64,000 bases of DNA from an uncultured Actinomycetes bacterium. GTDB lineage: Bacteria; Actinomycetota; Acidimicrobiia; IMCC26256; DASPTH01. The stretch is taken from NCBI GenBank assembly GCA_963721435.1, contig CAVRJC010000007.1, forward strand, positions 11,843 through 75,842, in the 5' to 3' direction. The notes beneath the pieces are model-generated. The model was not told the origin of the DNA. It ran no database searches and saw only the letters and a program-made list of their open reading frames with translations. Shown here piece by piece: positions 9,067 to 55,360 of the stretch (position 1 is the stretch's first letter; each line of letters begins with the position of its first letter). Position numbers and translations under genes: made by a program.

Positions 9067-9693
9067 ATGCCACGTCGGGCGTTGGTCGAAGCAAGCGAAG
9101 CGCTCGCGAGTCGTGACCCGCAGCTGGCCTCGGTCATCGCGACCGTCGGGCCCTGCGACATCAGATCGAGTCGCCCGAAGCGCACCCACTTCGCGGAGCT
9201 CGTGCGCGCGATCTGCTACCAACAGCTCGCGGGCGCGGCCGCGAGCACGATCCACGGTCGCGTCGAAGCGCTGTTCGACGCGCCGCCCACGCCGGAGGCG
9301 ATGCTCGCGCTGCCCGTCGAGTCGCTGCGCGGTGCCGGGCTCTCCGGCAACAAGACCGCGTCCGTGCGTGACCTCGCCGAGCGGGTGCTCGCCGGTGACG
9401 TCGAGCTCGACCGTGTGAGCCGGCTCCCCGACGACGAGGTCGTGCGTGAGCTCACGCTCGTCCGTGGTATCGGCCGCTGGACCGCCGAGATGTTCCTCAT
9501 CTTTCAACTCGGTCGCCTCGACGTGTGGCCGGTCGACGACTTCGGCGTGCGCAAGGGCTACGGCCGCATCTACGCGCTGCCCGAAGCACCGAAGCCACGC
9601 GCGCTCGAGGAGCTCGGTGAGCCGTTCCGGCCCCTGCGATCGGTCGTGGCCTGGTACTGCTGGCGCGCCGCGGAGCTGCCCGAGCTCGGGTGA
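9067..9693 (+). CDS. DNA-3-methyladenine glycosylase II / HhH-GPD base-excision glycosylase (AlkA-like)
   Basis: HhH-GPD motif LTLVRGIGRWTAEMFLIFQLGRLDVWPVDDFGVRKG. Confidence 0.8.
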   Translation: MPRRALVEASEALASRDPQLASVIATVGPCDIRSSRPKRTHFAELVRAICYQQLAGAAASTIHGRVEALFDAPPTPEAMLALPVESLRGAGLSGNKTASVRDLAERVLAGDVELDRVSRLPDDEVVRELTLVRGIGRWTAEMFLIFQLGRLDVWPVDDFGVRKGYGRIYALPEAPKPRALEELGEPFRPLRSVVAWYCWRAAELPELG

Positions 9694-21715: not shown

Positions 21716-23932
21716 TTATCGGTCGGCGACGCGGAGGGTCTCGATGACGAGGTCCGACGACGACCACGCCTGCACGCCCACCCGCTGACCCGCGGGTGCG
21801 TTGCGACCGCGCTCGACCGAGCCCTGCTCGAGGTCGTCGATGGTCATCACGACGGTGTCGTTCACCGATGCGACGAGGCGCTGGCCCACGATGTCGAGGC
21901 GCACGGTGAGGTTGCCGTACATCGTGCTCGGGTCGTCGGCGGCGACGTGTGCGATCGGGTTCCAGAGCTCGCGGTCGGCCTGCCACTGGCGCACGAGGTA
22001 CCCGCCGCCTTCGTACACCGGGTCGACGTCGAACGAGTACGCCGACATGCGGCCCTCGTCGTCGACGTCGGCGCGGAACAGCACACCGAAGCCAGGCCCG
22101 GCGCGGAACTCGAGATCGACTTCCACGAGGTAGCGATCGGACACGGTGAGGTTGGCGAGCGCCCACCGCTCGTCGGCCCGTCGCATGACCAGCGCACCCT
22201 GGCCGCGTACTTCGACCAGCGGCAGCGCGTTGCCGAGCTCCCAGTCGTCGTCGGCCCTGATCCACGCCTCGGGTTCCGGGTCGCCACTGCGGTCGAGCCG
22301 GTTGGCGGCATCGGTGACGGGCTCGGCGGTGTCCGAAGTCTCGTCAGTCTCGTCAGTCTCGTCAGTCTCGTCAGTCTCGTCAGTCTCTGCGGGCGCGGGC
22401 TCGATCGCCGCTTCCTCGGGCCGCCAGGAGATCGGCGAGAGGGCGTCACCCTCGTCCGGTGCGTCGACCTGGTCGGGACTCTTCAGGGGCTCAGTCGGCT
22501 CCCACGTCGGCGGCTCGTCGACCGCGACGAGCTTGTCGAGCAGGTCGGTGGCGCCATGGGCGTCGACATCGTCCGCCACGTCGACGTCGGCAATCTCGTC
22601 GTCGATCGTCTCGGTCTCGTCGACCGTTGTCTCGAACCTGCCGCGGGTGCGCCGCTCCGGGCGGGGTGCCGCCGGTGCGTCGGGGTCGCCCCAATCGACG
22701 AGGAACCCGGTGCTCGTGGCCTCGGGGTCGGGCTCGTGCGCCCACGGTGCGGGCGCGGGCTCGGCGAGCGGTGCGGCCTGCAGCGGCGGCAGATCGCGGA
22801 GGTCCTCGTAGCTCGTGAGCGCGATGACCTCGACGGCCGCCTCGTCGGCATGGCCGTCGACCCCGGGCTGGAGGTCGAACGCCTCGGCCGGGCTCCATGC
22901 GTCGGGCACCTCGGTGGTGCCTGCGTCACCCGGCCACTCCGGCGCGCCCGACGTCGTGTCCGGCTCGTTCCAGACACCCGACGTCGCGGTCTCCCAGTCG
23001 GGCGTCTCCCACGCGGGCCGCGCGTCGGGATCCCAGTCGGTGGTCCACGCCGGCGGCGTGAAGGTCTCGCCGCGGAGGGCGACGTCGATCGGCGGCGCAT
23101 CGGCCGGCGACCACGAACGGTCGACGGTCTCCGATGCGGCTTCGACGACGGTGGGAGCATCGAAGTCGGTGTGCCCGGGCGCCTGCACGTCGGCGACGGA
23201 TGCCGCGCCCGGCAGCACGAACGGCTCGTCGTCGACGAGCTCGAAGGTCCCGGACGGTGGTGCGATCGCCGAGTCGATCATGCCGGACTCGCCTATGGCG
23301 GCGAACGGCACGGCTTCCGCCATCCCCGATTCGACCGGCGCGTCGGCGGTGAGGAACGCGGGTGGCGCGAGCATGTCGGGGTAGTCGTGCGGGTCATCGG
23401 TCAGCGCTACCGGCTCGGGCAGCCGCGCGAGCTCTTCGAACACGTCGACGGGCGCCGCGGTCGTCGGCTCGGTGGAGGCGGATGCGGGCGCGAACGGCTC
23501 CGGCGCGAAGAACGGCTCCGGCGGTTCGGGCAGCGCCGTTGGAGCGGGCGCGGCCTGCGGACCGGAGTAGACCGGCGTGGGCTGGTCGGCCGCTTCGAGC
23601 GCGAGGACTGCACGGCCACCCGCACCGTTCTGCTGCCCGCGGCGCAGGAACGCGATCGTGTCGCCGATGCTCTCGGGGCCGGCTTCGAGCTCGAGCGCGC
23701 CCTGGTCGGGCACCAGCTCGCTGACGTCGACGCCGCAGGATCCGGCGAGCACCCAGAGGTCGCTCTCGGGGATCGGCACCTTGCCCCGCTCGTACGCGAC
23801 GAGCTCGCGGCGGCTCAGCCCGGCGCCGCGCGCGACCTCGGAGAGCGAGAGGCCCTTCCGTCGCCGCACTGCGCGCAATTGCTTGCCGAGTTGCTTCGGA
23901 TTGGTCGTCGGGATGGTCGCCGCCTCGGCCAT
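21716..23932 (-). CDS. HTH_XRE DNA-binding protein with a long acidic Pro-rich disordered linker and a C-terminal DUF1080/LamG-like jelly-roll domain
   Basis: The start is taken at the ATG at 23932 (MAEAATIPTTNPKQLGKQLRAVRRRKGLSLSEVARGAGLSRRELVAYERGKVPIPESDLWVLAGSCGVDVSELV, an XRE-type HTH); sequence upstream of it in the 1207-aa ORF is low-complexity. About 500 aa of D/E/P/A/T-rich low-complexity sequence follow, including an ETDETDETDETDETDET repeat. The C-terminal roughly 180 aa (LTVSDRYLVEVDLEFRAGPGFGVLFRA...GQRVGVQAWSSSDLVIETLRV) match the DUF1080 / 3-keto-disaccharide-hydrolase-like beta-sandwich pattern. I see no TM helix. Confidence 0.7.
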   Translation of the reverse strand: MAEAATIPTTNPKQLGKQLRAVRRRKGLSLSEVARGAGLSRRELVAYERGKVPIPESDLWVLAGSCGVDVSELVPDQGALELEAGPESIGDTIAFLRRGQQNGAGGRAVLALEAADQPTPVYSGPQAAPAPTALPEPPEPFFAPEPFAPASASTEPTTAAPVDVFEELARLPEPVALTDDPHDYPDMLAPPAFLTADAPVESGMAEAVPFAAIGESGMIDSAIAPPSGTFELVDDEPFVLPGAASVADVQAPGHTDFDAPTVVEAASETVDRSWSPADAPPIDVALRGETFTPPAWTTDWDPDARPAWETPDWETATSGVWNEPDTTSGAPEWPGDAGTTEVPDAWSPAEAFDLQPGVDGHADEAAVEVIALTSYEDLRDLPPLQAAPLAEPAPAPWAHEPDPEATSTGFLVDWGDPDAPAAPRPERRTRGRFETTVDETETIDDEIADVDVADDVDAHGATDLLDKLVAVDEPPTWEPTEPLKSPDQVDAPDEGDALSPISWRPEEAAIEPAPAETDETDETDETDETDETSDTAEPVTDAANRLDRSGDPEPEAWIRADDDWELGNALPLVEVRGQGALVMRRADERWALANLTVSDRYLVEVDLEFRAGPGFGVLFRADVDDEGRMSAYSFDVDPVYEGGGYLVRQWQADRELWNPIAHVAADDPSTMYGNLTVRLDIVGQRLVASVNDTVVMTIDDLEQGSVERGRNAPAGQRVGVQAWSSSDLVIETLRVADR
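22338..22387. repeat. 9-bp microsatellite GTCTCGTCA, 5 full copies plus a partial copy, inside the coding sequence; encodes (ETD)n on the minus strand
   Basis: Read directly: the unit GTCTCGTCA tiles 22338-22382 and ends in a truncated copy. The unit length is a multiple of 3, so copy-number changes stay in frame. Confidence 0.9.
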
Positions 23933-24010
23933 GATCTTTGGTATCGGCTGCTCACCCGTCTGCCTGAAGGGTGAGCTGCACGGGTCTGGTCGGGGTAGGT
24001 TCGCGGCTTC

Positions 24011-24571
24011 ATGGCCATCTACGCCCTCGGCGACTCCGCACCGCAGATCCATCCCGCGGCATACGTGCACCCCGACGCCACCGTCATCGGCAACGTCACG
24101 ATCGGCCCGCAGTCGACGGTGTGGCCCCAGACCGTCCTCCGGGGTGACTACGGCCGGATCGAGATCGGTGCCCGCACGTCGATCCAGGACGGCAGCGTGG
24201 TACACACCACCGCGTTGCTCCCGACGATCATCGGCGACGACTGCGTGATCGGGCACCTGGTGCACCTCGAGTGCTGCACGGTGCAGGACCGCGCGCTCGT
24301 CGGCACGGGCGCGATCGTGCTGCACTCGGCGGTGATCGAGTCGGGTGCGTGGGTCGGCGCCGGGGCGGTGGTCCCGAACCGCATGATCGTGCCCACCGGG
24401 GCGATGGCCCTCGGTGTGCCGGCGAAACTGCGCGAAGGCGTGGTCGATCCCGACGAGATCCAGCGGATGGCCGACCTCTATATCGGCAACGCCACGCGCT
24501 ACCAGCGCCGAGCTGCGCCGCATCGACTGACGCGCGGCGCGCGCGTCAGTCGATGCGCGGTCGATGCGTGA
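24011..24571 (+). CDS. gamma-class carbonic anhydrase family protein (hexapeptide-repeat left-handed beta-helix, YrdA/PaaY-like)
   Basis: Repeating [LIV]GxxxxIxxxxVIG hexapeptides, with PQIHPAAYVHPDATVIGNVTIG and the metal-ligand His context. Confidence 0.9.
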   Translation: MAIYALGDSAPQIHPAAYVHPDATVIGNVTIGPQSTVWPQTVLRGDYGRIEIGARTSIQDGSVVHTTALLPTIIGDDCVIGHLVHLECCTVQDRALVGTGAIVLHSAVIESGAWVGAGAVVPNRMIVPTGAMALGVPAKLREGVVDPDEIQRMADLYIGNATRYQRRAAPHRLTRGARVSRCAVDA

Positions 24572-24606
24572 CCGTCGATGCCTGACCGTTGACGCCTGAC
24601 CCTTGA

Positions 24607-25905
24607 CTAACCCTTGACGTACGCGAACTTCTCGGCGACCTTGCCGTCGCGCACGCGGATGACATCGACGCCGCGGATGTGTGCGGTCGTGCCGTCGTCG
24701 TTCTCCCACGAGTAGACCCACTGCACGACACACCGGTCGCCCGTCACGATCACGTCTTCGGCATCGAAGTGCGCGGTCGGTGACGCGGCGAAGAATTCCT
24801 GCCACGCACCGCGCACCGCGGCTGCCCCCTCGAATCGTCGGCCCTCGGGTGGCGACGTGTTCTCGAACACACAGTCGTCGGTCATCGCGGCCATCACGCC
24901 GTCGACATCGTGGCGGTTGAACGCGTCGTTGAACCGGTCGACCGCTTCGGCCGTCGCCGACTCGCTGGATGCCATGGTCACTCCTGTCTCGTCGCCGTCC
25001 GGTCGGTACAGGTCGGGTTCCACGAACATCAGCCGCGCCTCGGGCACCGAGGTTCGCACGCGCGCTTCCACCGTGTCGATCGCGCGCGCGACCTCGGGCA
25101 CGGTCGACACGCTGAATTCGAGCTTGGTCGCGACGAGCACGTCGTCGGGGCCGAGGTGCATCGTGCGCAGGTGTATCACGCGCGACACCTCGTCGCCGTC
25201 GTGGATCGCGGTCCGGATCCGCGCCTCCAGTGTCGGGGACGCCGACTCGCCGATCAGCAGGCTCTTCATCTCGATCGCGAGCACGATGGCGATCACGCCG
25301 AGGAGCAGGCCGATCGCGAGGCTCCCGACCGCGTCCCAACGGTCATTGCCGGTGACCTCGGCGAGGGTGATGCCGACGAGGGCCATGAACAGGCCGGCGA
25401 GCGCGCCCGTGTCTTCGAGCAGCACGACGGGGAGCTCGGGGTTCTTGGTCGTGTGGATGAACTGCCACCACGAGCGGCCGTCACGCGACGGGTTCGCTTC
25501 GCGACGCGCGGTGCGGAGTGACAGTCCTTCGAGCACGATCGCGACGCCGAGCACCACGTACGCGACGATCGGTGATTCGATGTGCTCCGGAGTGATGAGC
25601 TTCTGGATGCCCTCGTACAGCGCGAACATCGAGCCGAGCGTGAACAGCACCAGCGCGACGACGAACGCCCAGAAGTAGCGCTCGGCGCTGTACCCGAAGG
25701 GATGTTGCACGCTCGGCGCGCGCTTGCTCCGCCGGCCGCCGAGGAAGAGCAATCCCTGGTTGCCGGTGTCGGCCACCGAGTGGATCGCCTCCGCGAGCAT
25801 CGACGCCGAGCCCGTGATCGCGAACGCAAAGAACTTCGATGCCGCGATCCCGAGGTTGGCGAGGAACGCGGCGACGATGGCCCGGCGAGTCGCCTGGTCA
25901 GTCAT
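24607..25905 (-). CDS. cation diffusion facilitator (CDF) transporter with an in-frame C-terminal SnoaL/NTF2-like domain
   Basis: Starts MTDQATRRAIVAAFLANLGIAASKFFAFAITGSASMLAEAIHSVADTGNQ, with CDF TM helices carrying the HS.AD and DxxxH metal-site context, then the cytoplasmic CTD (...EARLMFVEPD). With no stop in between, a 120-aa SnoaL-like domain follows (AVDRFNDAFNRHDVDGVMAAMTDDCVFE...GVDVIRVRDGKVAEKFAYVKG). Confidence 0.8.
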   Translation of the reverse strand: MTDQATRRAIVAAFLANLGIAASKFFAFAITGSASMLAEAIHSVADTGNQGLLFLGGRRSKRAPSVQHPFGYSAERYFWAFVVALVLFTLGSMFALYEGIQKLITPEHIESPIVAYVVLGVAIVLEGLSLRTARREANPSRDGRSWWQFIHTTKNPELPVVLLEDTGALAGLFMALVGITLAEVTGNDRWDAVGSLAIGLLLGVIAIVLAIEMKSLLIGESASPTLEARIRTAIHDGDEVSRVIHLRTMHLGPDDVLVATKLEFSVSTVPEVARAIDTVEARVRTSVPEARLMFVEPDLYRPDGDETGVTMASSESATAEAVDRFNDAFNRHDVDGVMAAMTDDCVFENTSPPEGRRFEGAAAVRGAWQEFFAASPTAHFDAEDVIVTGDRCVVQWVYSWENDDGTTAHIRGVDVIRVRDGKVAEKFAYVKG

Positions 25906-40131: not shown

Positions 40132-40851
40132 ATGACGAACCTCGCTCGCAAATTCAGTGCGCCCGTCTTGCTGGTTGCGGTCGCCGCCGGAGCACTGTCG
40201 GTCGCGCCCGCGGCGAGCGCCGCGAGCAGCAACGACGCGAAGATCGCCCAGGCGGGCGTGCTGGTCTCGTCCGACCTGCCCACCACGTGGTCGCAACACA
40301 AGCGGGACACGTCCTCGGACAAGGCGACGGCCGCGGCGGCGGCGAAGATCCCGAGCTGCAAGGCCTACCGGTCGTTCCGTCAGTCTCTCGACTCGGTGAA
40401 GCGATCACGGGCCGAGTCGCCCGATTTCGAGCTCGGACAGTCGAGCTTCAACAACACCGTGAATGTGTTCGCGAACGAGAAGTCGGCCAGTCGAGCGCTT
40501 GCAATGTTCGGCAGCTCGTCGATCGCGACCTGCACCGACAAGCTGTTCACGGTGTTGTTCCAGAAGCAGGTCGCGTCGGACAAGAAGACGGCGGCGCAGG
40601 TGCAGGGCATCGAAGTCGACGTGCAGCCCTACGACATCACGAACTACGGCGACGACACCGTCGCGTACGAAGGCAGCGCCACCGTCACGTTCAAGGACGG
40701 CACGACGCTCCAGATCGGGCTCGGCAACACGGCGGTGCGAGTCGGGCGTGCGGTGAGCGACTACAGCTACACGCTGTTCGAGCAGGACGCGGTCGACGCG
40801 CTTTCACCCGCCGTCGAGAAGTCGATCGCGCGGCTCCAAGCGGCTCTCTGA
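40132..40851 (+). CDS. secreted hypothetical protein
   Basis: ATG at 40132 with Sec signal MTNLARKFSAPVLLVAVAAGALSVAPAASAASS. The upstream part of the listed ORF looks like spurious high-GC sequence. Confidence 0.6.
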   Translation: MTNLARKFSAPVLLVAVAAGALSVAPAASAASSNDAKIAQAGVLVSSDLPTTWSQHKRDTSSDKATAAAAAKIPSCKAYRSFRQSLDSVKRSRAESPDFELGQSSFNNTVNVFANEKSASRALAMFGSSSIATCTDKLFTVLFQKQVASDKKTAAQVQGIEVDVQPYDITNYGDDTVAYEGSATVTFKDGTTLQIGLGNTAVRVGRAVSDYSYTLFEQDAVDALSPAVEKSIARLQAAL

Positions 40852-41640
40852 GCGTCGGGTACCCAGACCTTCCCTTCGATGCGGGCGACCGCATCGTCGA
40901 CGACAGGGAGTGCGGCGAGCTCGGTGGCCGCGCGCGACATCGCGCGCGCGCTGAGCAACGCGTCGAAGGCGTCCTCACTCGCGATCGCCGCGTCCCGGAA
41001 CTGCTCGTCGAGCTCGGGAGCGTTCGCCTGCAGGAACGCGCGTCGTGCGTCGGCGCGTGCCTTCACGACCGGACCGGTGAACACCCGCGGGTAGATCTCG
41101 ACGACGGCCGGGAGGCTCGGCTGGTCGTGGAACGGCCAGATGCGGAACCCGGCGGCGCGGAGCCGGGCCAGCACCGGGAAGCCGCGGATCGACCCGGTAC
41201 CGACACTGCCCGCCCCGCCGACCTGGAACGTGGACTTCACCCGGGTCCCGCCGATCGCCGGCAGCTGCGTCTCCGTCTGCCGGAAGTGCGCAGGGAGCTC
41301 GGGACGGCGGGCGCCGGCACGGCCCCAGAACGGCGGCGCGCACTCGGAGAGCCACGTCTCACCGGAACGTGGTCGCCTCGTCCCACAGCACGTCGGCCGA
41401 CGAGAGCCCGCGTTCCGCCAGGAACCAGGTGGGGAATGAGAAGGAGAAGTCGAGCCCGACCGCGAGCGCCGAGTCGTCATCGGCGATCTCGATGACGTGT
41501 TGCGCGACCTCCTCGCGCGTGCGCCCGCACTCGAGCCGATGGATGGCCCCGTCCCGCGCTTCGGCGATCCAGATGGCGTGGCGCTCACCGGCCCGGCGCC
41601 CGGACCAGTCGACCGCGAGCACCCTCACGCCGTGGCCCAT
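40767..41640 (-). pseudogene. conserved hypothetical protein (possibly DUF429 / RNase-H-like fold) split across two frames
   Basis: The N-terminal part (MGHGVRVLAVDWSGRRAGERHAIWIAEARDG...LDFSFSFPTWFLAERGLSSADVLWDEATTFR, then stop at 41359) and the C-terminal part (...RIWPFHDQPSLPAVVEIYPRVFTGPVVKARADARRAFLQANAPELDEQFRDAAIASEDAFDALLSARAM...) are in different frames, implying a frameshift near 41355-41362. The ATG at 41640 or the GTG at 41628 overlaps the pirin stop (GTGA). Confidence 0.45.
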
Positions 41641-42329
41641 ACCAGGATCTCGGTGACCTCGTCGCCGGCCGCCAGCGCGATCGCGTTCGCATCGGTGATG
41701 CGCGCCGCGTCGCCGGTACCCAGCTCGTGGGCTCCCGCGAGCACGGCCGAACCGATCGGCACGTAGACATGCAGGTGTGGCGAGTCGGGCAGCGTGATCT
41801 CCCCGCCCGCGGCGAGGCGCGCCGCGAAGAGGGTCGCGTCGCGCTGGTGGATCGTGATCGCGCCCTCGTGGCCCTGACCGGAGGCGACGGGCACGAGCCC
41901 CCCGCGTGCGAGGGCGTCGTTCACGTCGAGCTGCTCGTAGCTCGGGTCGATGCCGGTGGTGTCGGGGAGCACCCACATCTGCACGAGGTGCACGTCGGCG
42001 GTGCGGCTCGCGTTCATCTCGGAATGGGTGATGCCCGATCCCGCACTCATGCGCTGCGCCAGGCCCGGGTAGATCACGCCCACGGTGCCGATGCTGTCGC
42101 GGTGCTCGAGCTCGCCGTCGAGCACCCAGGTGACGATCTCCATGTCGCGGTGGGGATGCGTGCCGAAGCCGCCGCCTGCGCGCACGATGTCGTCGTTGTT
42201 CACGATGAGGAGCCCGTGCCCGGTGTTCGCGGGGTCGCGGTGCGGCCCGAAGCTGAAGCTGTGCCAGGAATCCAGCCAGTCGAGCTGCGTGTGGAACCGG
42301 TCACCGGCCTTGCGGATGTCGACGTCCAT
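41625..42329 (-). CDS. pirin family cupin protein
   Basis: GFGTHPHRDMEIVTWVLDGELEHRDSIG is the pirin N-terminal cupin metal-site motif. Confidence 0.9.
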   Translation of the reverse strand: MDVDIRKAGDRFHTQLDWLDSWHSFSFGPHRDPANTGHGLLIVNNDDIVRAGGGFGTHPHRDMEIVTWVLDGELEHRDSIGTVGVIYPGLAQRMSAGSGITHSEMNASRTADVHLVQMWVLPDTTGIDPSYEQLDVNDALARGGLVPVASGQGHEGAITIHQRDATLFAARLAAGGEITLPDSPHLHVYVPIGSAVLAGAHELGTGDAARITDANAIALAAGDEVTEILVWATA

Positions 42330-42383
42330 GCCCCCATCGTCGCGCGCGACCGACCGCAGTTTCCCTGTGACCCATCCTCATCT

Positions 42384-42585
42384 GGGTCGTTCAGGCTCGC
42401 GGGTCGTGATGGACCGCGTGACACCGGAGGCGCTCGCCTTCGCTCTGCTCTTTGGGTCGTTCAGGCTCGCGGGTCGTGATGGACCGCGTGACACCGGAGG
42501 CGCTCGCCTTCGCTCTGCTCTTTGGGTTGCTCAGGCTCGCGGGTCGTGATGGACCGCGTGACACCGGAGGCGCTCGCCTTCGCTC
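42384..42585. repeat. tandem direct repeat: three copies of a 70-bp unit (MIRU-like) in the pirin / LMW-PTP divergent intergenic region
   Basis: Copies 42384-42453 and 42454-42523 are identical (GGGTCGTTCAGGCTCGCGGGTCGTGATGGACCGCGTGACACCGGAGGCGCTCGCCTTCGCTCTGCTCTTT). The third copy, 42524-42585, has 2 substitutions and is truncated. Each unit contains an ATG. The one in copy 3 (42549) is in frame with the PTP gene. Confidence 0.95.
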
Positions 42586-42599
42586 CTAGTCTCTTCCGG

Positions 42600-43127
42600 A
42601 TGCCGAACGTGATCACTTTGTGCACGGGCAACGCCGCGCGTTCGGTGATGGCCGGTGCGATCCTCGTCGACCGGGTGCCCGGCCTCGACGTCGACACCCG
42701 GGGTACCGCGGTCATCGAAGGCCTGGTCATGAGCTGGCGCACCCGCGCCGCGCTCGAGGCCCTCGGCCTCCGCGCCGACAGCCACCGGAGCCGGCAGCTC
42801 ACGAGCGACGATCTCGCGCGTGCCGACCTCGTCATCGCGATGGCCGGTGAGCACGTCGAGTACATCCGCCGGGTCGAGCCGGCCGCCGCCGACCGCACCG
42901 GCACGCTGCGCCGGCTCGCGCGCGACCTGCCGCTCACATCCGGAGAGCTCCGAGAGCGCATCGCCGCGCTCCAGCTGCACGAAGCCCACCTCGAGCCGTG
43001 GGAAGACATCGAAGACCCGGTGAGCGGCGATGTCGAGCAGTTCCATCGCTGCGTGCGCGAGATCGCCGCGTTGCTCGACGATCTCGTCCCCCTGCTCGCG
43101 GTCGAGGTCACGGAGGCACGGGGGTGA
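42600..43127 (+). CDS. low-molecular-weight protein-tyrosine phosphatase (LMW-PTP family)
   Basis: P-loop CTGNAARS (CX5R) at residues 8-15 of MPNVITLCTGNAARSVMA, plus a DP-containing general-acid loop (EDIEDPVSG). ATG at 42600. An alternative in-frame start lies inside repeat copy 3 (42549). Confidence 0.85.
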   Translation: MPNVITLCTGNAARSVMAGAILVDRVPGLDVDTRGTAVIEGLVMSWRTRAALEALGLRADSHRSRQLTSDDLARADLVIAMAGEHVEYIRRVEPAAADRTGTLRRLARDLPLTSGELRERIAALQLHEAHLEPWEDIEDPVSGDVEQFHRCVREIAALLDDLVPLLAVEVTEARG

Positions 43128-44389
43128 GAATTCGGGCGTGGCGAGGGGTATCGCGACGTGCCGCCGGTGTCGTGCCAATCGCCGTCCTCGGGGTGCTCAC
43201 GCTGACGGTCACCACCGCCTCGGGCCAGCAGACGACCGCGCCGAGCACGACTGCGCCGGCGTCGACGTCGCCATCGCCGGGATTCACGGCGACGTCCGTG
43301 AAGGTCGGGGGCCTCGGCTGGGCGCTCCAGTACGGCGGTGCCGACGTCGGTGCCCGCGCGCGGTTCGCACGGGCGAACGCGTCGGGAGGCGTGAACGGCC
43401 GCACGATCGACTACGTGGGGTTCCGCGACGACGGCGGTGATCCCGCGGCGAGCGCCAAGGCCGCCGCGCAGCTCGTGCAGCAGGACCACGTCTTCGCGGT
43501 GGTGCCGGCGGTCACGCCGGTCCTCGCGCCGGCTGATCTCGTCGCCGGCAAGGTCCCGTACTTCGGGTGGGCGCTCTCGTCGCAGTTCTGTCAGACCAAG
43601 TTGGGGTTCGGCTTCAACGGCTGTCTGTTTCCTCCGGGCGACTCGGTCACGAGCGGCGCCTGGGGCAACGTCCTCGCGAAGGCGATGGGCGGCGGGGCAC
43701 AGGGGAAGACGGTCGCGCTGCTCACCGAGAACACCGACTCCGGCACCGCGGCGTTCGACTCGCTGTCGGCGTCCCTGAAGGCAGCCGGCTTCGACGTCGT
43801 GATGGGCGAGCGGTCGCTGCCGGTGCCGGCGGTCGGCGATTTCGGCGGCCTGGCGAAGAAGATCATGTCGAGCAGCTCCGGCAAGGCGCCCGACGTCGTG
43901 CTCGCGGTGGGCTCCTACTCCAACATCGCGCTCGTGAAGAGCGCGCTCGCCGATGCGAGCTTCAAGGGTGTCTTCACCGACTCGATCGAATACGACCCGC
44001 AGCTGGTGGTCGCCGCCGAGGGCTCGATGGTCTTCGTGCAGACTGCACCGGTCGAGAGCGCCAGCACGCTCCCGGCGATGCAGCAGCTGATCGACGACGT
44101 CCACAAGGTTGCCCCCACGCAGCCGATCGACCCCGCTGTCATCGCGGGGTACCTGTCGGCCGACCTGTTCCTGCAAGTGCTCGCGCAGCGACCCACTGAT
44201 CTGTCCGTGGCATCGTTCCTGACCGCCGCGAACCGGTACGTGTACGAGGTGCCGGGCCTGGTCGGCCCGACGAAGTTCCCGAAGGCCCGCACGCAGCCGG
44301 CACCGTGCGGCAGCCTCGTGCAGAGCGACGGCACCGCGTTCTCGGTGAAGGTCCCGTACACCTGCAGCAAGAACGCTCAGGTCGGATGA
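43124..44389 (+). CDS. ABC-type substrate-binding protein (periplasmic binding protein type I / Leu-Ile-Val-binding-like), secreted
   Basis: The GTG at 43124 overlaps the PTP stop (GTGA). Signal peptide AAGVVPIAVLGVLTLTVTTASG, then a Thr/Ala/Pro-rich linker and the binding domain. Confidence 0.8.
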   Translation: MRIRAWRGVSRRAAGVVPIAVLGVLTLTVTTASGQQTTAPSTTAPASTSPSPGFTATSVKVGGLGWALQYGGADVGARARFARANASGGVNGRTIDYVGFRDDGGDPAASAKAAAQLVQQDHVFAVVPAVTPVLAPADLVAGKVPYFGWALSSQFCQTKLGFGFNGCLFPPGDSVTSGAWGNVLAKAMGGGAQGKTVALLTENTDSGTAAFDSLSASLKAAGFDVVMGERSLPVPAVGDFGGLAKKIMSSSSGKAPDVVLAVGSYSNIALVKSALADASFKGVFTDSIEYDPQLVVAAEGSMVFVQTAPVESASTLPAMQQLIDDVHKVAPTQPIDPAVIAGYLSADLFLQVLAQRPTDLSVASFLTAANRYVYEVPGLVGPTKFPKARTQPAPCGSLVQSDGTAFSVKVPYTCSKNAQVG

Positions 44390-54831: not shown

Positions 54832-54906
54832 GGCGGCGTAGCCGAGTGGCTCAGGCAAGGGTCTGCAAAACCCTGGACGCGGGTTCAATTCCCGCCGCCG
54901 CCTCCA
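54832..54906 (+). tRNA. tRNA-Cys(GCA): tRNA-Cys (anticodon GCA)
   Basis: Manual cloverleaf: acceptor GGCGGCG/CGCCGCC, anticodon stem AGGGT/ACCCT with loop CTGCAAA (anticodon GCA), T-arm GCGGG-TTCAATT-CCCGC, discriminator U, and an encoded CCA. Confidence 0.9.
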
Positions 54907-55360
54907 ACCTGATCCGATGCTGGATGCGTCGCCGGCGGCTGGGTGCTCGCACCCGTGTTCGCCAACGAGCTGCCGACGGCCCCGCCGTTGCCGGTGTTCA
55001 CGACTTCCGGCGGGGCATCGGCGGGGACGCCCTCGGGAACGCTCTCGGGGGAACGCCCTCGGGAACGCCCGTGCTGATCAGCTCGCCCTGGGTGTGCGCG
55101 TTTGCAGAGGGGTCGAGAACACCAGTGAACCGAATCCGGCAATGGTGGCGGCCTCTTCGTGAAGCCCGCCCGGATCGATCACGCCCAGGAGTCCGGAATG
55201 CTTCCGAACGAAGGCAGCCAGAGGATCTGACGCGTGCACGACGGCGAACGCGACAAGTCGGGTGTGCCGAAGATGCAGCCGCTCCTCAGCGTTCGCGCAA
55301 CTCTCCGACCGCGCCTCGATGGGCGAGGACGGGTGGGGAACGAGAGCGCGGGCTCGGGCG

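What the first reader, a model, noticed from the sequence alone, without database searches (positions are those of the whole stretch)
42330..42599. Three tandem 70-bp MIRU-like repeats in the divergent pirin / LMW-PTP promoter region, each carrying an ATG
Two copies are identical and the third nearly so. 70 bp is not a multiple of 3, so successive copies shift frame. The ATG in copy 3 (42549) is in frame with the phosphatase gene and would add a 17-aa N-terminal extension. Copy-number changes would move the -35/-10 regions and the alternative starts relative to both divergent genes. That gives a possible phase-variation or VNTR mechanism, like mycobacterial MIRUs.
Basis: seen in the sequence. 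Interest (0 to 1): 0.6.

Follow-up and report, generated by a model that had tools for sequence, protein, structure and literature searches.

The report
Variable 70-bp promoter tandem repeat
A real 70-bp tandem repeat (three copies) lies between two divergently transcribed genes of an uncultured high-GC actinobacterium; related lineages carry 0, 1 or about 2.7 copies at the same spot, so it is an ordinary single-locus promoter minisatellite, not a dispersed MIRU-type element, and it does not extend the phosphatase protein.

Summary
The repeat is real. Units lie at 42383-42452 and 42453-42522 (identical) and at 42523-42585 (2 mismatches). The reported span 42330-42599 is the whole pirin/LMW-PTP intergenic region, and 42330-42382 is unique sequence.

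Orthologous loci from other metagenomes give a copy-number series at this site. Seven have no unit (intergenic 56-67 bp), one has one unit (123 bp), one has 2.7 units (198 bp), and this window has 3 (270 bp). Units are 97-100% identical within a locus and 79-85% identical between loci. Expansion was therefore recent and lineage-specific, or the copies are being homogenised.

No other copy exists in the 64-kb window or in the public collections scanned. There is no Rfam match and no unusual folding.

The phosphatase starts at ATG 42600. All close orthologs are 175 aa, and two have an in-frame stop two codons upstream. A TANNNT hexamer sits 6-7 nt before this ATG in all nine orthologous regions, which suggests a leaderless mRNA. 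ATG 42549, used by the public annotation, is a by-product of the repeat.

The array lies between two likely core promoters, so copy number changes their separation and not the -35/-10 geometry.

The closest known kind is the promoter tandem repeats of M. tuberculosis. Interest is low to moderate.

The parts
42383..42452 (.). Repeat unit 1 (70 bp); carries ATG 42409
   Evidence: identical to unit 2
42453..42522 (.). Repeat unit 2 (70 bp); carries ATG 42479
42523..42585 (.). Repeat unit 3 (63 nt in register, 2 mismatches at 42528 and 42530); carries ATG 42549. At position 8 it has C, the same base as the units of L002 and L006
42330..42382 (.). Unique pirin-proximal segment. It is homologous to the first half of the L006 intergenic region and is not significantly similar to the unit
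   Evidence: z 7.7 against L006; z 0.1 against the unit
42587..42592 (+). TAGTCT, a -10-like TANNNT hexamer 7 nt upstream of ATG 42600. It is the only TANNNT in the intergenic region and is positionally conserved in all 9 orthologous regions
   Evidence: window background 0.41 per kb
42336..42341 (-). GACGAT on the pirin strand, a weaker -10-like NANNNT hexamer 6 nt upstream of the pirin ATG. Orthologs have GACGAT, GACCAT, CATGAT or CATACT at the same place
   Evidence: read directly from the sequences and not tested statistically
42600..43127 (+). LMW phosphotyrosine phosphatase CDS (175 aa, MPNVITLCTGNAARS...). The start is fixed by the orthologs
41625..42329 (-). Pirin CDS (234 aa)
43124..44389 (+). 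Peripla_BP_6 solute-binding protein gene. Its GTG overlaps the phosphatase stop (GTGA), so the promoter probably drives an operon

Best explanation
This is a single-locus minisatellite (VNTR) in a promoter region.

A 67-70-bp segment just upstream of the phosphatase core promoter has been amplified head-to-tail. The likely mechanism is replication slippage or unequal recombination between copies (inferred). It happened recently and separately in different lineages of an uncultured high-GC actinobacterial group.

The phosphatase is most likely made from a leaderless mRNA that starts at ATG 42600. Its -10 element would be TAGTCT (42587-42592), which lies outside the array (inferred from conservation). 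The pirin core promoter probably lies in the unique 53 bp next to its own ATG (inferred).

The array therefore fills the space between two back-to-back promoters. In unit-free relatives these promoters share only 56-67 bp. Changing the copy number changes the separation of the promoters and the number of upstream sites a unit may carry. It leaves both core promoters and both proteins intact.

The ATGs inside the units are incidental, and the 192-aa public annotation is a start-codon miscall. Any effect on expression is likely modest and graded, not an on/off switch.
For: The repeat is real and far beyond chance.

Copy-number series at the orthologous site. Intergenic lengths are 56, 56, 61, 63, 64 and 67 bp (L007, L009, L004, L008, L001, L005) and 58 bp (the P0005 locus, from gene coordinates), all with no unit. 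L006 has 123 bp (1 unit), L002 has 198 bp (2 full units plus a 47-nt partial copy, z 10.9) and the window has 270 bp (3 units). The P0010 locus spacing of 65 bp is also too short for a unit, but its pirin call is 10 aa longer than the others, so the true spacing there is uncertain.

Units are 97-100% identical within a locus and 79-85% between loci, which is about the divergence of the flanking gene.

The array occurs only here. nhmmer with a six-unit profile gives a best other hit of E 0.51 in 64 kb. All 23 relaxed-pattern metagenome hits have random flanks and no pirin or phosphatase gene.

Start codon and -10. The close orthologs are 175 aa. In-frame stops lie upstream of the shared ATG in L002, L003, L007 and L009. 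Each of the 9 intergenic regions has exactly one TANNNT, always 6-7 nt before that ATG, against 0.41 per kb in the window.

The units contain no TANNNT on either strand. They show no Rfam family and no folding beyond shuffles.
Against: No transcription start, expression or read-level data exist, so the leaderless promoters and any effect of copy number are inferred.

The relatives are different species-level lineages (81-86% protein identity for the clade that holds the unit-bearing loci). Variation within one population is not shown.

In the NJ tree of the phosphatase gene the unit-bearing loci are not one clade: L001 and L008, which lack units, nest among them. This needs either losses or a poorly resolved tree.

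Units 1 and 2 are 100% identical in what is probably a short-read MAG, so the exact copy number cannot be verified.

Only 64 kb of the genome was available for the dispersal test.
Confidence: 0.7

Rival explanations
1. An adaptive, phase-variable promoter tandem repeat, as proposed for M. tuberculosis dop, lpdA and cysG. Frequent gain and loss of units inside a population would tune or switch expression of the phosphatase/solute-binding operon, of pirin, or of both, and the copy number would be under selection.
For: The architecture matches those loci. The units are of similar size and the array ends 14 nt upstream of a probably leaderless start (PMC12817950). Expansion was recent in two lineages and the distribution on the tree is patchy. 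In M. tuberculosis a four-copy lpdA repeat is reported to give 12.5-fold more expression than one copy.
Against: There are no population-level data. The internal units lack any TANNNT, so they do not multiply complete promoters. Most relatives manage with no unit at all.
Confidence: 0.2
2. A dispersed, mobile or REP/MITE/MIRU-type element that inserted here and was then amplified.
For: Relative to L001, L006 carries about 59 extra bp bounded by the short direct repeat TCGCGCG, which could be read as a target-site duplication (read directly). The unit is not significantly similar to the unit-free intergenic regions under strict scoring.
Against: There is no second copy in 64 kb. None was found in the genome or metagenome scans. 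Homologous units occur only at this orthologous locus. There are no terminal inverted repeats and no folding signal. The 5' part of the unit weakly resembles the locus's own phosphatase-proximal end (z 2.6-2.9).
Confidence: 0.06
3. An assembly artefact: the repeat, or its copy number, was produced by the assembler.
For: Units 1 and 2 are identical. A related contig (L003) breaks inside the repeat, which shows that assemblers struggle at this site.
Against: Homologous arrays appear in independent assemblies from different samples and pipelines (L002 JGI, L006 Logan). Unit 3 differs from units 1 and 2 at two sites, one of which matches the base seen in L002 and L006. The longest exact self-overlap at a shift of 70 is 75 nt, short enough to be resolved by long k-mers or reads.
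Confidence: 0.04

Closest known systems
Promoter tandem repeats (promoter VNTRs) of Mycobacterium tuberculosis: dop (57 bp), lpdA-glpD2 (58 bp, 12 bp upstream of the gene) and cysG-efpA (54-56 bp, 29 bp upstream) (PMC12817950). Also the variable repeat upstream of fpg1 (PMC2734929).
   Same: An actinobacterial, 50-70-bp, single-locus tandem repeat immediately upstream of a (probably) leaderless gene start. Copy number differs between related genomes and is patchily distributed on the tree.
   Different: In M. tuberculosis the variation is shown within lineages and within isogenic cultures, and for lpdA and fpg1 it is linked to expression. Here only between-lineage differences are shown and expression is unknown. 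Here the array lies between two divergent genes, and the internal units lack a -10-like hexamer.
MIRU (mycobacterial interspersed repetitive units)
   Same: Unit size falls in the 46-101-bp range, the repeat is intergenic and tandem, and copy number varies (for the definition).
   Different: MIRUs are one sequence family scattered at 41 loci in the genome. From my own knowledge (Supply et al. 1997), they typically lie between co-directional genes of operons. This unit was found at one locus only, between divergent genes.
Short-repeat promoter phase variation, for example the TA repeats in the overlapping divergent hifA/hifB promoters of Haemophilus influenzae (own knowledge, not checked here)
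   Same: A repeat tract inside a divergent promoter region that can affect both genes.
   Different: In those systems units of 1-7 bp lie between -35 and -10, and single-unit changes alter the spacer and switch the promoter. Here the period is 70 bp and the tract lies upstream of the -10, so the core geometry is unchanged.

Membership tests
Single-locus VNTR / minisatellite | Head-to-tail copies of a unit of 10 bp or more | tested here: met
   Period 70, 2.9 copies, 98% matches
Single-locus VNTR / minisatellite | Copy number differs between related genomes at the orthologous locus | tested here: met
   0, 1, 2.7 and 3 units; intergenic lengths 56-67, 123, 198 and 270 bp
Single-locus VNTR / minisatellite | Copy number varies between strains of one species or within a population | not testable with these tools
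   The closest relative in the databases has 86% protein identity, and no reads are available
MIRU | Tandem units of 46-101 bp | tested here: met
   70 bp; definition from PMC3914561
MIRU | The same unit family scattered at many loci of the genome | tested here: not met
   No other copy in the 64-kb window. Nothing beyond chance in the genome and metagenome scans. Caveat: the rest of this genome could not be searched
MIRU | Sequence similarity to the MIRU consensus | not tested
Promoter tandem repeat (M. tuberculosis type) | Array directly upstream (about 10-30 bp) of a leaderless gene start | tested here: inconclusive
   The array ends 14 nt before ATG 42600. A conserved TANNNT lies 7 nt before the ATG. 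The leaderless start is inferred and was not mapped
Promoter tandem repeat (M. tuberculosis type) | Copy-number changes recur independently (polyphyletic) | tested here: inconclusive
   Units cluster by locus and unit-bearing loci are not monophyletic in an NJ tree of a 528-nt gene. The tree is weak
Promoter tandem repeat (M. tuberculosis type) | Copy number changes expression | not testable with these tools
   Needs reporter or transcript data
Short-repeat spacer phase variation | Repeat lies between -35 and -10, so unit changes alter the spacer length | tested here: not met
   The array ends upstream of the only -10-like hexamer, and the last unit always abuts it

The most novel reading that the evidence does not exclude
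Promoter tandem-repeat copy-number switching, recently proposed as a phase-variation mechanism in M. tuberculosis, may also operate in free-living, uncultured Actinomycetota. Here it would act on a shared bidirectional leaderless promoter. Unit gain and loss would uncouple two overlapping divergent promoters (pirin against the LMW-PTP/solute-binding operon) and retune both.
Probability: 0.15. Interest if true: 0.45.

Novelty: new member of a known kind. Interest (0 to 1): 0.25.

Why it matters
The main result is corrective. The repeat is real, but it is a local promoter minisatellite and not a new mobile or MIRU-like family, and it has caused a start-codon miscall in the public annotation (192 aa instead of 175 aa).

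It is also a clean natural series (0, 1, 2.7 and 3 units) at one bidirectional, probably leaderless promoter. That series could be used directly in reporter constructs to test how promoter tandem repeats and promoter spacing affect divergent transcription in high-GC Gram-positive bacteria. It also shows that such repeats break short-read metagenome assemblies.

Tried and rejected
- Rfam scan of 41500-43500 at a permissive threshold: only chance-level hits (E above 2).
- Folding of single units (DNA, both strands) and of the whole array as RNA: z between -1.8 and +0.9, so no structure signal.
- Sigma-70 consensus and terminator scan of the region: nothing found. This scan is not informative for high-GC promoters.
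- Exact look-ups of the window's own pirin and phosphatase proteins and of P0001: not on record. The source contig could not be retrieved.
- Exact 29-mer scan of the species-representative genomes: 0 hits. Protein-guided scan of the same collection: only one distant ortholog, L005.
- Strict gapped pattern against the metagenomes: 0 hits. Relaxed pattern: 23 hits, all chance.
- My own idea that the unit is a duplication of the entire ancestral intergenic region. The unit is not significantly similar to the unit-free intergenic regions (z about 0). There is only weak support that its 5' part is a decayed copy of the phosphatase-proximal end, with TCGCTC--AGGCTC against TCGCTCCTAGGCTC (z 2.6-2.9), and that the two halves of L006 are related (z 2.2). 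I keep it as a suggestion only.
- A coding reading (small ORFs or an N-terminal extension): rejected because the ATGs are absent from the L002 and L006 units and because of the in-frame stops in the orthologs.

Full report
**Observation.** The intergenic region 42330-42599 contains a 70-bp tandem repeat. Tandem Repeats Finder reports 42383-42585, period 70, 2.9 copies, 98% matches, score 392, the strongest array in the window by a wide margin. In register, the copies are 42383-42452 and 42453-42522 (identical) and 42523-42592. The third copy has two mismatches (42528, 42530) in its first 63 nt and then diverges into unique sequence. A 44-nt core occurs exactly three times against zero expected. 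Each copy carries an ATG (42409, 42479, 42549), and 42549 is in frame with the downstream gene, 17 codons before ATG 42600. The first 53 nt of the reported span (42330-42382) are not repeat.

**Context.** The - strand gene 41625-42329 is a pirin (PF02678 and PF17954). The + strand gene is an LMW phosphotyrosine phosphatase (PF01451, active-site motif CTGNAARS). Its stop overlaps the GTG of a Peripla_BP_6 solute-binding protein gene (43124-44389), and a second such gene follows, so the promoter probably serves an operon. The DNA is about 70% G+C. More distant homologs are labelled Acidimicrobiia MAGs, and the one genome-collection ortholog is an 'uncultured Actinomycetes bacterium' MAG. The source is therefore an uncultured member of the Actinomycetota.

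**True start of the phosphatase.** The only database entry identical to this protein is a 192-aa annotation that starts at ATG 42549, inside repeat copy 3. The next twelve homologs (74-86% identity) are 175 aa, or 179 aa in one case. In L002 and L003 an in-frame TGA lies two codons upstream of the shared MPNV start. In L007 and L009 an in-frame stop lies 13 codons upstream with no start codon in between. The start is therefore 42600, and the 17-aa extension is an annotation artefact created by the repeat.

**Comparative series.**
- I retrieved eight orthologous pirin|phosphatase loci with DNA, plus one contig that begins inside the repeat, and gene coordinates only for two more.
- Intergenic lengths without any unit are 56 bp (L007, L009), 58 bp (P0005 locus), 61 bp (L004), 63 bp (L008), 64 bp (L001) and 67 bp (L005).
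- The P0010 locus has 65 bp between its called genes, also too short for a unit. Its pirin call is 10 aa longer than the rest, so its true spacing is uncertain.
- L006 has 123 bp with one unit. L002 has 198 bp with two full 67-bp units and a 47-nt partial copy next to pirin (z 10.9). The window has 270 bp with three units.
- The window's unique 42330-42382 is homologous to the pirin-proximal half of L006 (z 7.7). The window is therefore essentially the L006 arrangement plus two more units.
- L003, from another sample but with the same protein as L002, is a contig that begins inside the repeat.

**Timing of expansion.** Units are 97-100% identical within a locus but 79-85% identical between loci. 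The phosphatase genes of the unit-bearing loci are 83-92% identical at the nucleotide level. The amplification therefore post-dates the split of these lineages, or the copies are homogenised within each array. Either way the array is dynamic. In an NJ tree of the phosphatase gene, the unit-free loci L001 and L008 nest between the window and the L006/L002 pair. This implies contraction back to zero in some lineages, or a weakly resolved tree. I do not lean on the tree.

**What it is not.**
- A profile HMM built from six units finds only the three known copies in the 64-kb window; the next hit has E 0.51.
- An exact 29-mer scan of the species-representative genomes found nothing. A strict gapped pattern found nothing in the metagenome collection.
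- A relaxed pattern found 23 places, all with random-level flanks and no pirin or phosphatase gene nearby.
- There is no Rfam family. Neither the unit nor the array folds better than shuffled controls. The unit ATG is absent from the L002 and L006 units.
- A dispersed MIRU/REP/MITE-type element, a structured leader RNA and a coding function are therefore all unsupported. The caveat is that the rest of this genome could not be searched.

**Promoter anatomy (inferred).**
- In each of the nine orthologous intergenic regions there is exactly one TANNNT on the + strand (TAGTCT, TAGGCT, TATTGT or TAGACT). It always ends 6-7 nt before the phosphatase ATG. The window-wide frequency of TANNNT is 0.41 per kb. 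This hexamer is conserved even in L005, whose intergenic sequence otherwise scores no better than shuffled controls against the others.
- This is the arrangement expected for a -10 element driving a leaderless mRNA, which is common in Actinobacteria (established knowledge). The M. tuberculosis repeat loci are described in the same way.
- On the other side, an NANNNT hexamer (GACGAT, GACCAT, CATGAT or CATACT) lies 5-6 nt before the pirin ATG in all loci. This evidence is weaker and was not tested statistically.
- The array (42383-42585) contains no TANNNT on either strand. It lies between about -54 of pirin and about -15 of the phosphatase.
- Three things follow. The last unit always supplies the same sequence upstream of the -10, so copy number does not change the -35/-10 geometry. 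The pirin-proximal 53 bp are untouched. What does change is the distance between two promoters that share only 56-67 bp in unit-free relatives, and so probably compete for RNA polymerase, together with the number of any unit-borne binding sites.

**Origin of the unit.** By eye, the unit boundary in L002 looks like the phosphatase-proximal end of the region joined to the pirin-proximal start. Formal tests give only weak support. The 5' part of the unit matches the locus's own phosphatase-proximal end (TCGCTC--AGGCTC against TCGCTCCTAGGCTC) at z 2.6-2.9. The two halves of the L006 region match at z 2.2. The unit against the unit-free regions of other lineages is at chance. If the weak match is real, the internal copies carry a -10 element inactivated by a 2-nt deletion. 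I treat this as a suggestion only.

**Comparison with known systems.** MIRUs are defined as 46-101-bp tandem repeats of one family scattered at 41 loci of M. tuberculosis. This element meets the size and tandem criteria but not the dispersal criterion. The closest match is the class of promoter tandem repeats described in M. tuberculosis. These are 54-58-bp units 12-29 bp upstream of dop, lpdA and cysG, the last two next to leaderless promoters. Their copy-number variation is polyphyletic, and for lpdA expression depends on copy number. A length-variable repeat upstream of fpg1 is also linked to expression. The present locus is a new member of that kind in an uncultured environmental actinobacterium. 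Its particular feature is that it sits between divergent genes.

**Caveats.** No reads are available, so the exact copy number (two of the three units are identical) and any within-population variation are unverified. Independent assemblies carrying homologous arrays (L002, L006), and the fact that unit 3 differs from units 1 and 2 at two sites, argue against a pure artefact. The promoter model rests on conservation alone.

**Verdict.** It is VNTR-like, but it is not MIRU-like or dispersed, there is no N-terminal extension, and copy number does not shift the -35/-10 spacing. It is an ordinary but well-documented promoter minisatellite, of low to moderate interest.

Noticed in passing
window 22337-22387: A perfect 9-bp repeat, 5.7 copies (AGTCTCGTC), lies inside the long - strand ORF 21716-25339. 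It encodes an (ETD)n run, 'ETDETDETDETDETDETSD'. It is a possible in-frame coding VNTR.
   Followed up: partly
window 42549-43127: The only identical database protein (P0001, 192 aa, NCBI/ENA) starts at ATG 42549 inside repeat copy 3. The orthologs show that the start is 42600 (175 aa), so the public annotation is probably 17 aa too long.
   Followed up: yes
L003 1-67: This contig, from a second sample of the L002 lineage, begins inside the last repeat unit. Short-read assemblers break at this array, so copy numbers in such assemblies are unreliable.
   Followed up: partly
window 9231-9330: ARAGORN calls a tRNA-Ala (GGC) that is 100 nt long, which is unusually long for a bacterial tRNA. It could contain an insertion or be a miscall.
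   Followed up: no
window 55018-55070: An imperfect 12-, 14- or 26-bp tandem repeat (GGGAACGCCC-like) lies about 110 nt downstream of tRNA-Cys at 54832-54906.
   Followed up: no
window 40767-41588: A 273-aa ORF sits immediately downstream of pirin on the - strand. An ORF of the same length occupies the same position in L004. It has no Pfam match.
   Followed up: partly
window 42330-42341 and orthologs: Both divergent genes appear to be leaderless. Each has a -10-like hexamer 5-7 nt before its ATG, and in unit-free relatives the two hexamers are only about 35-45 bp apart, which implies overlapping back-to-back promoters.
   Followed up: partly
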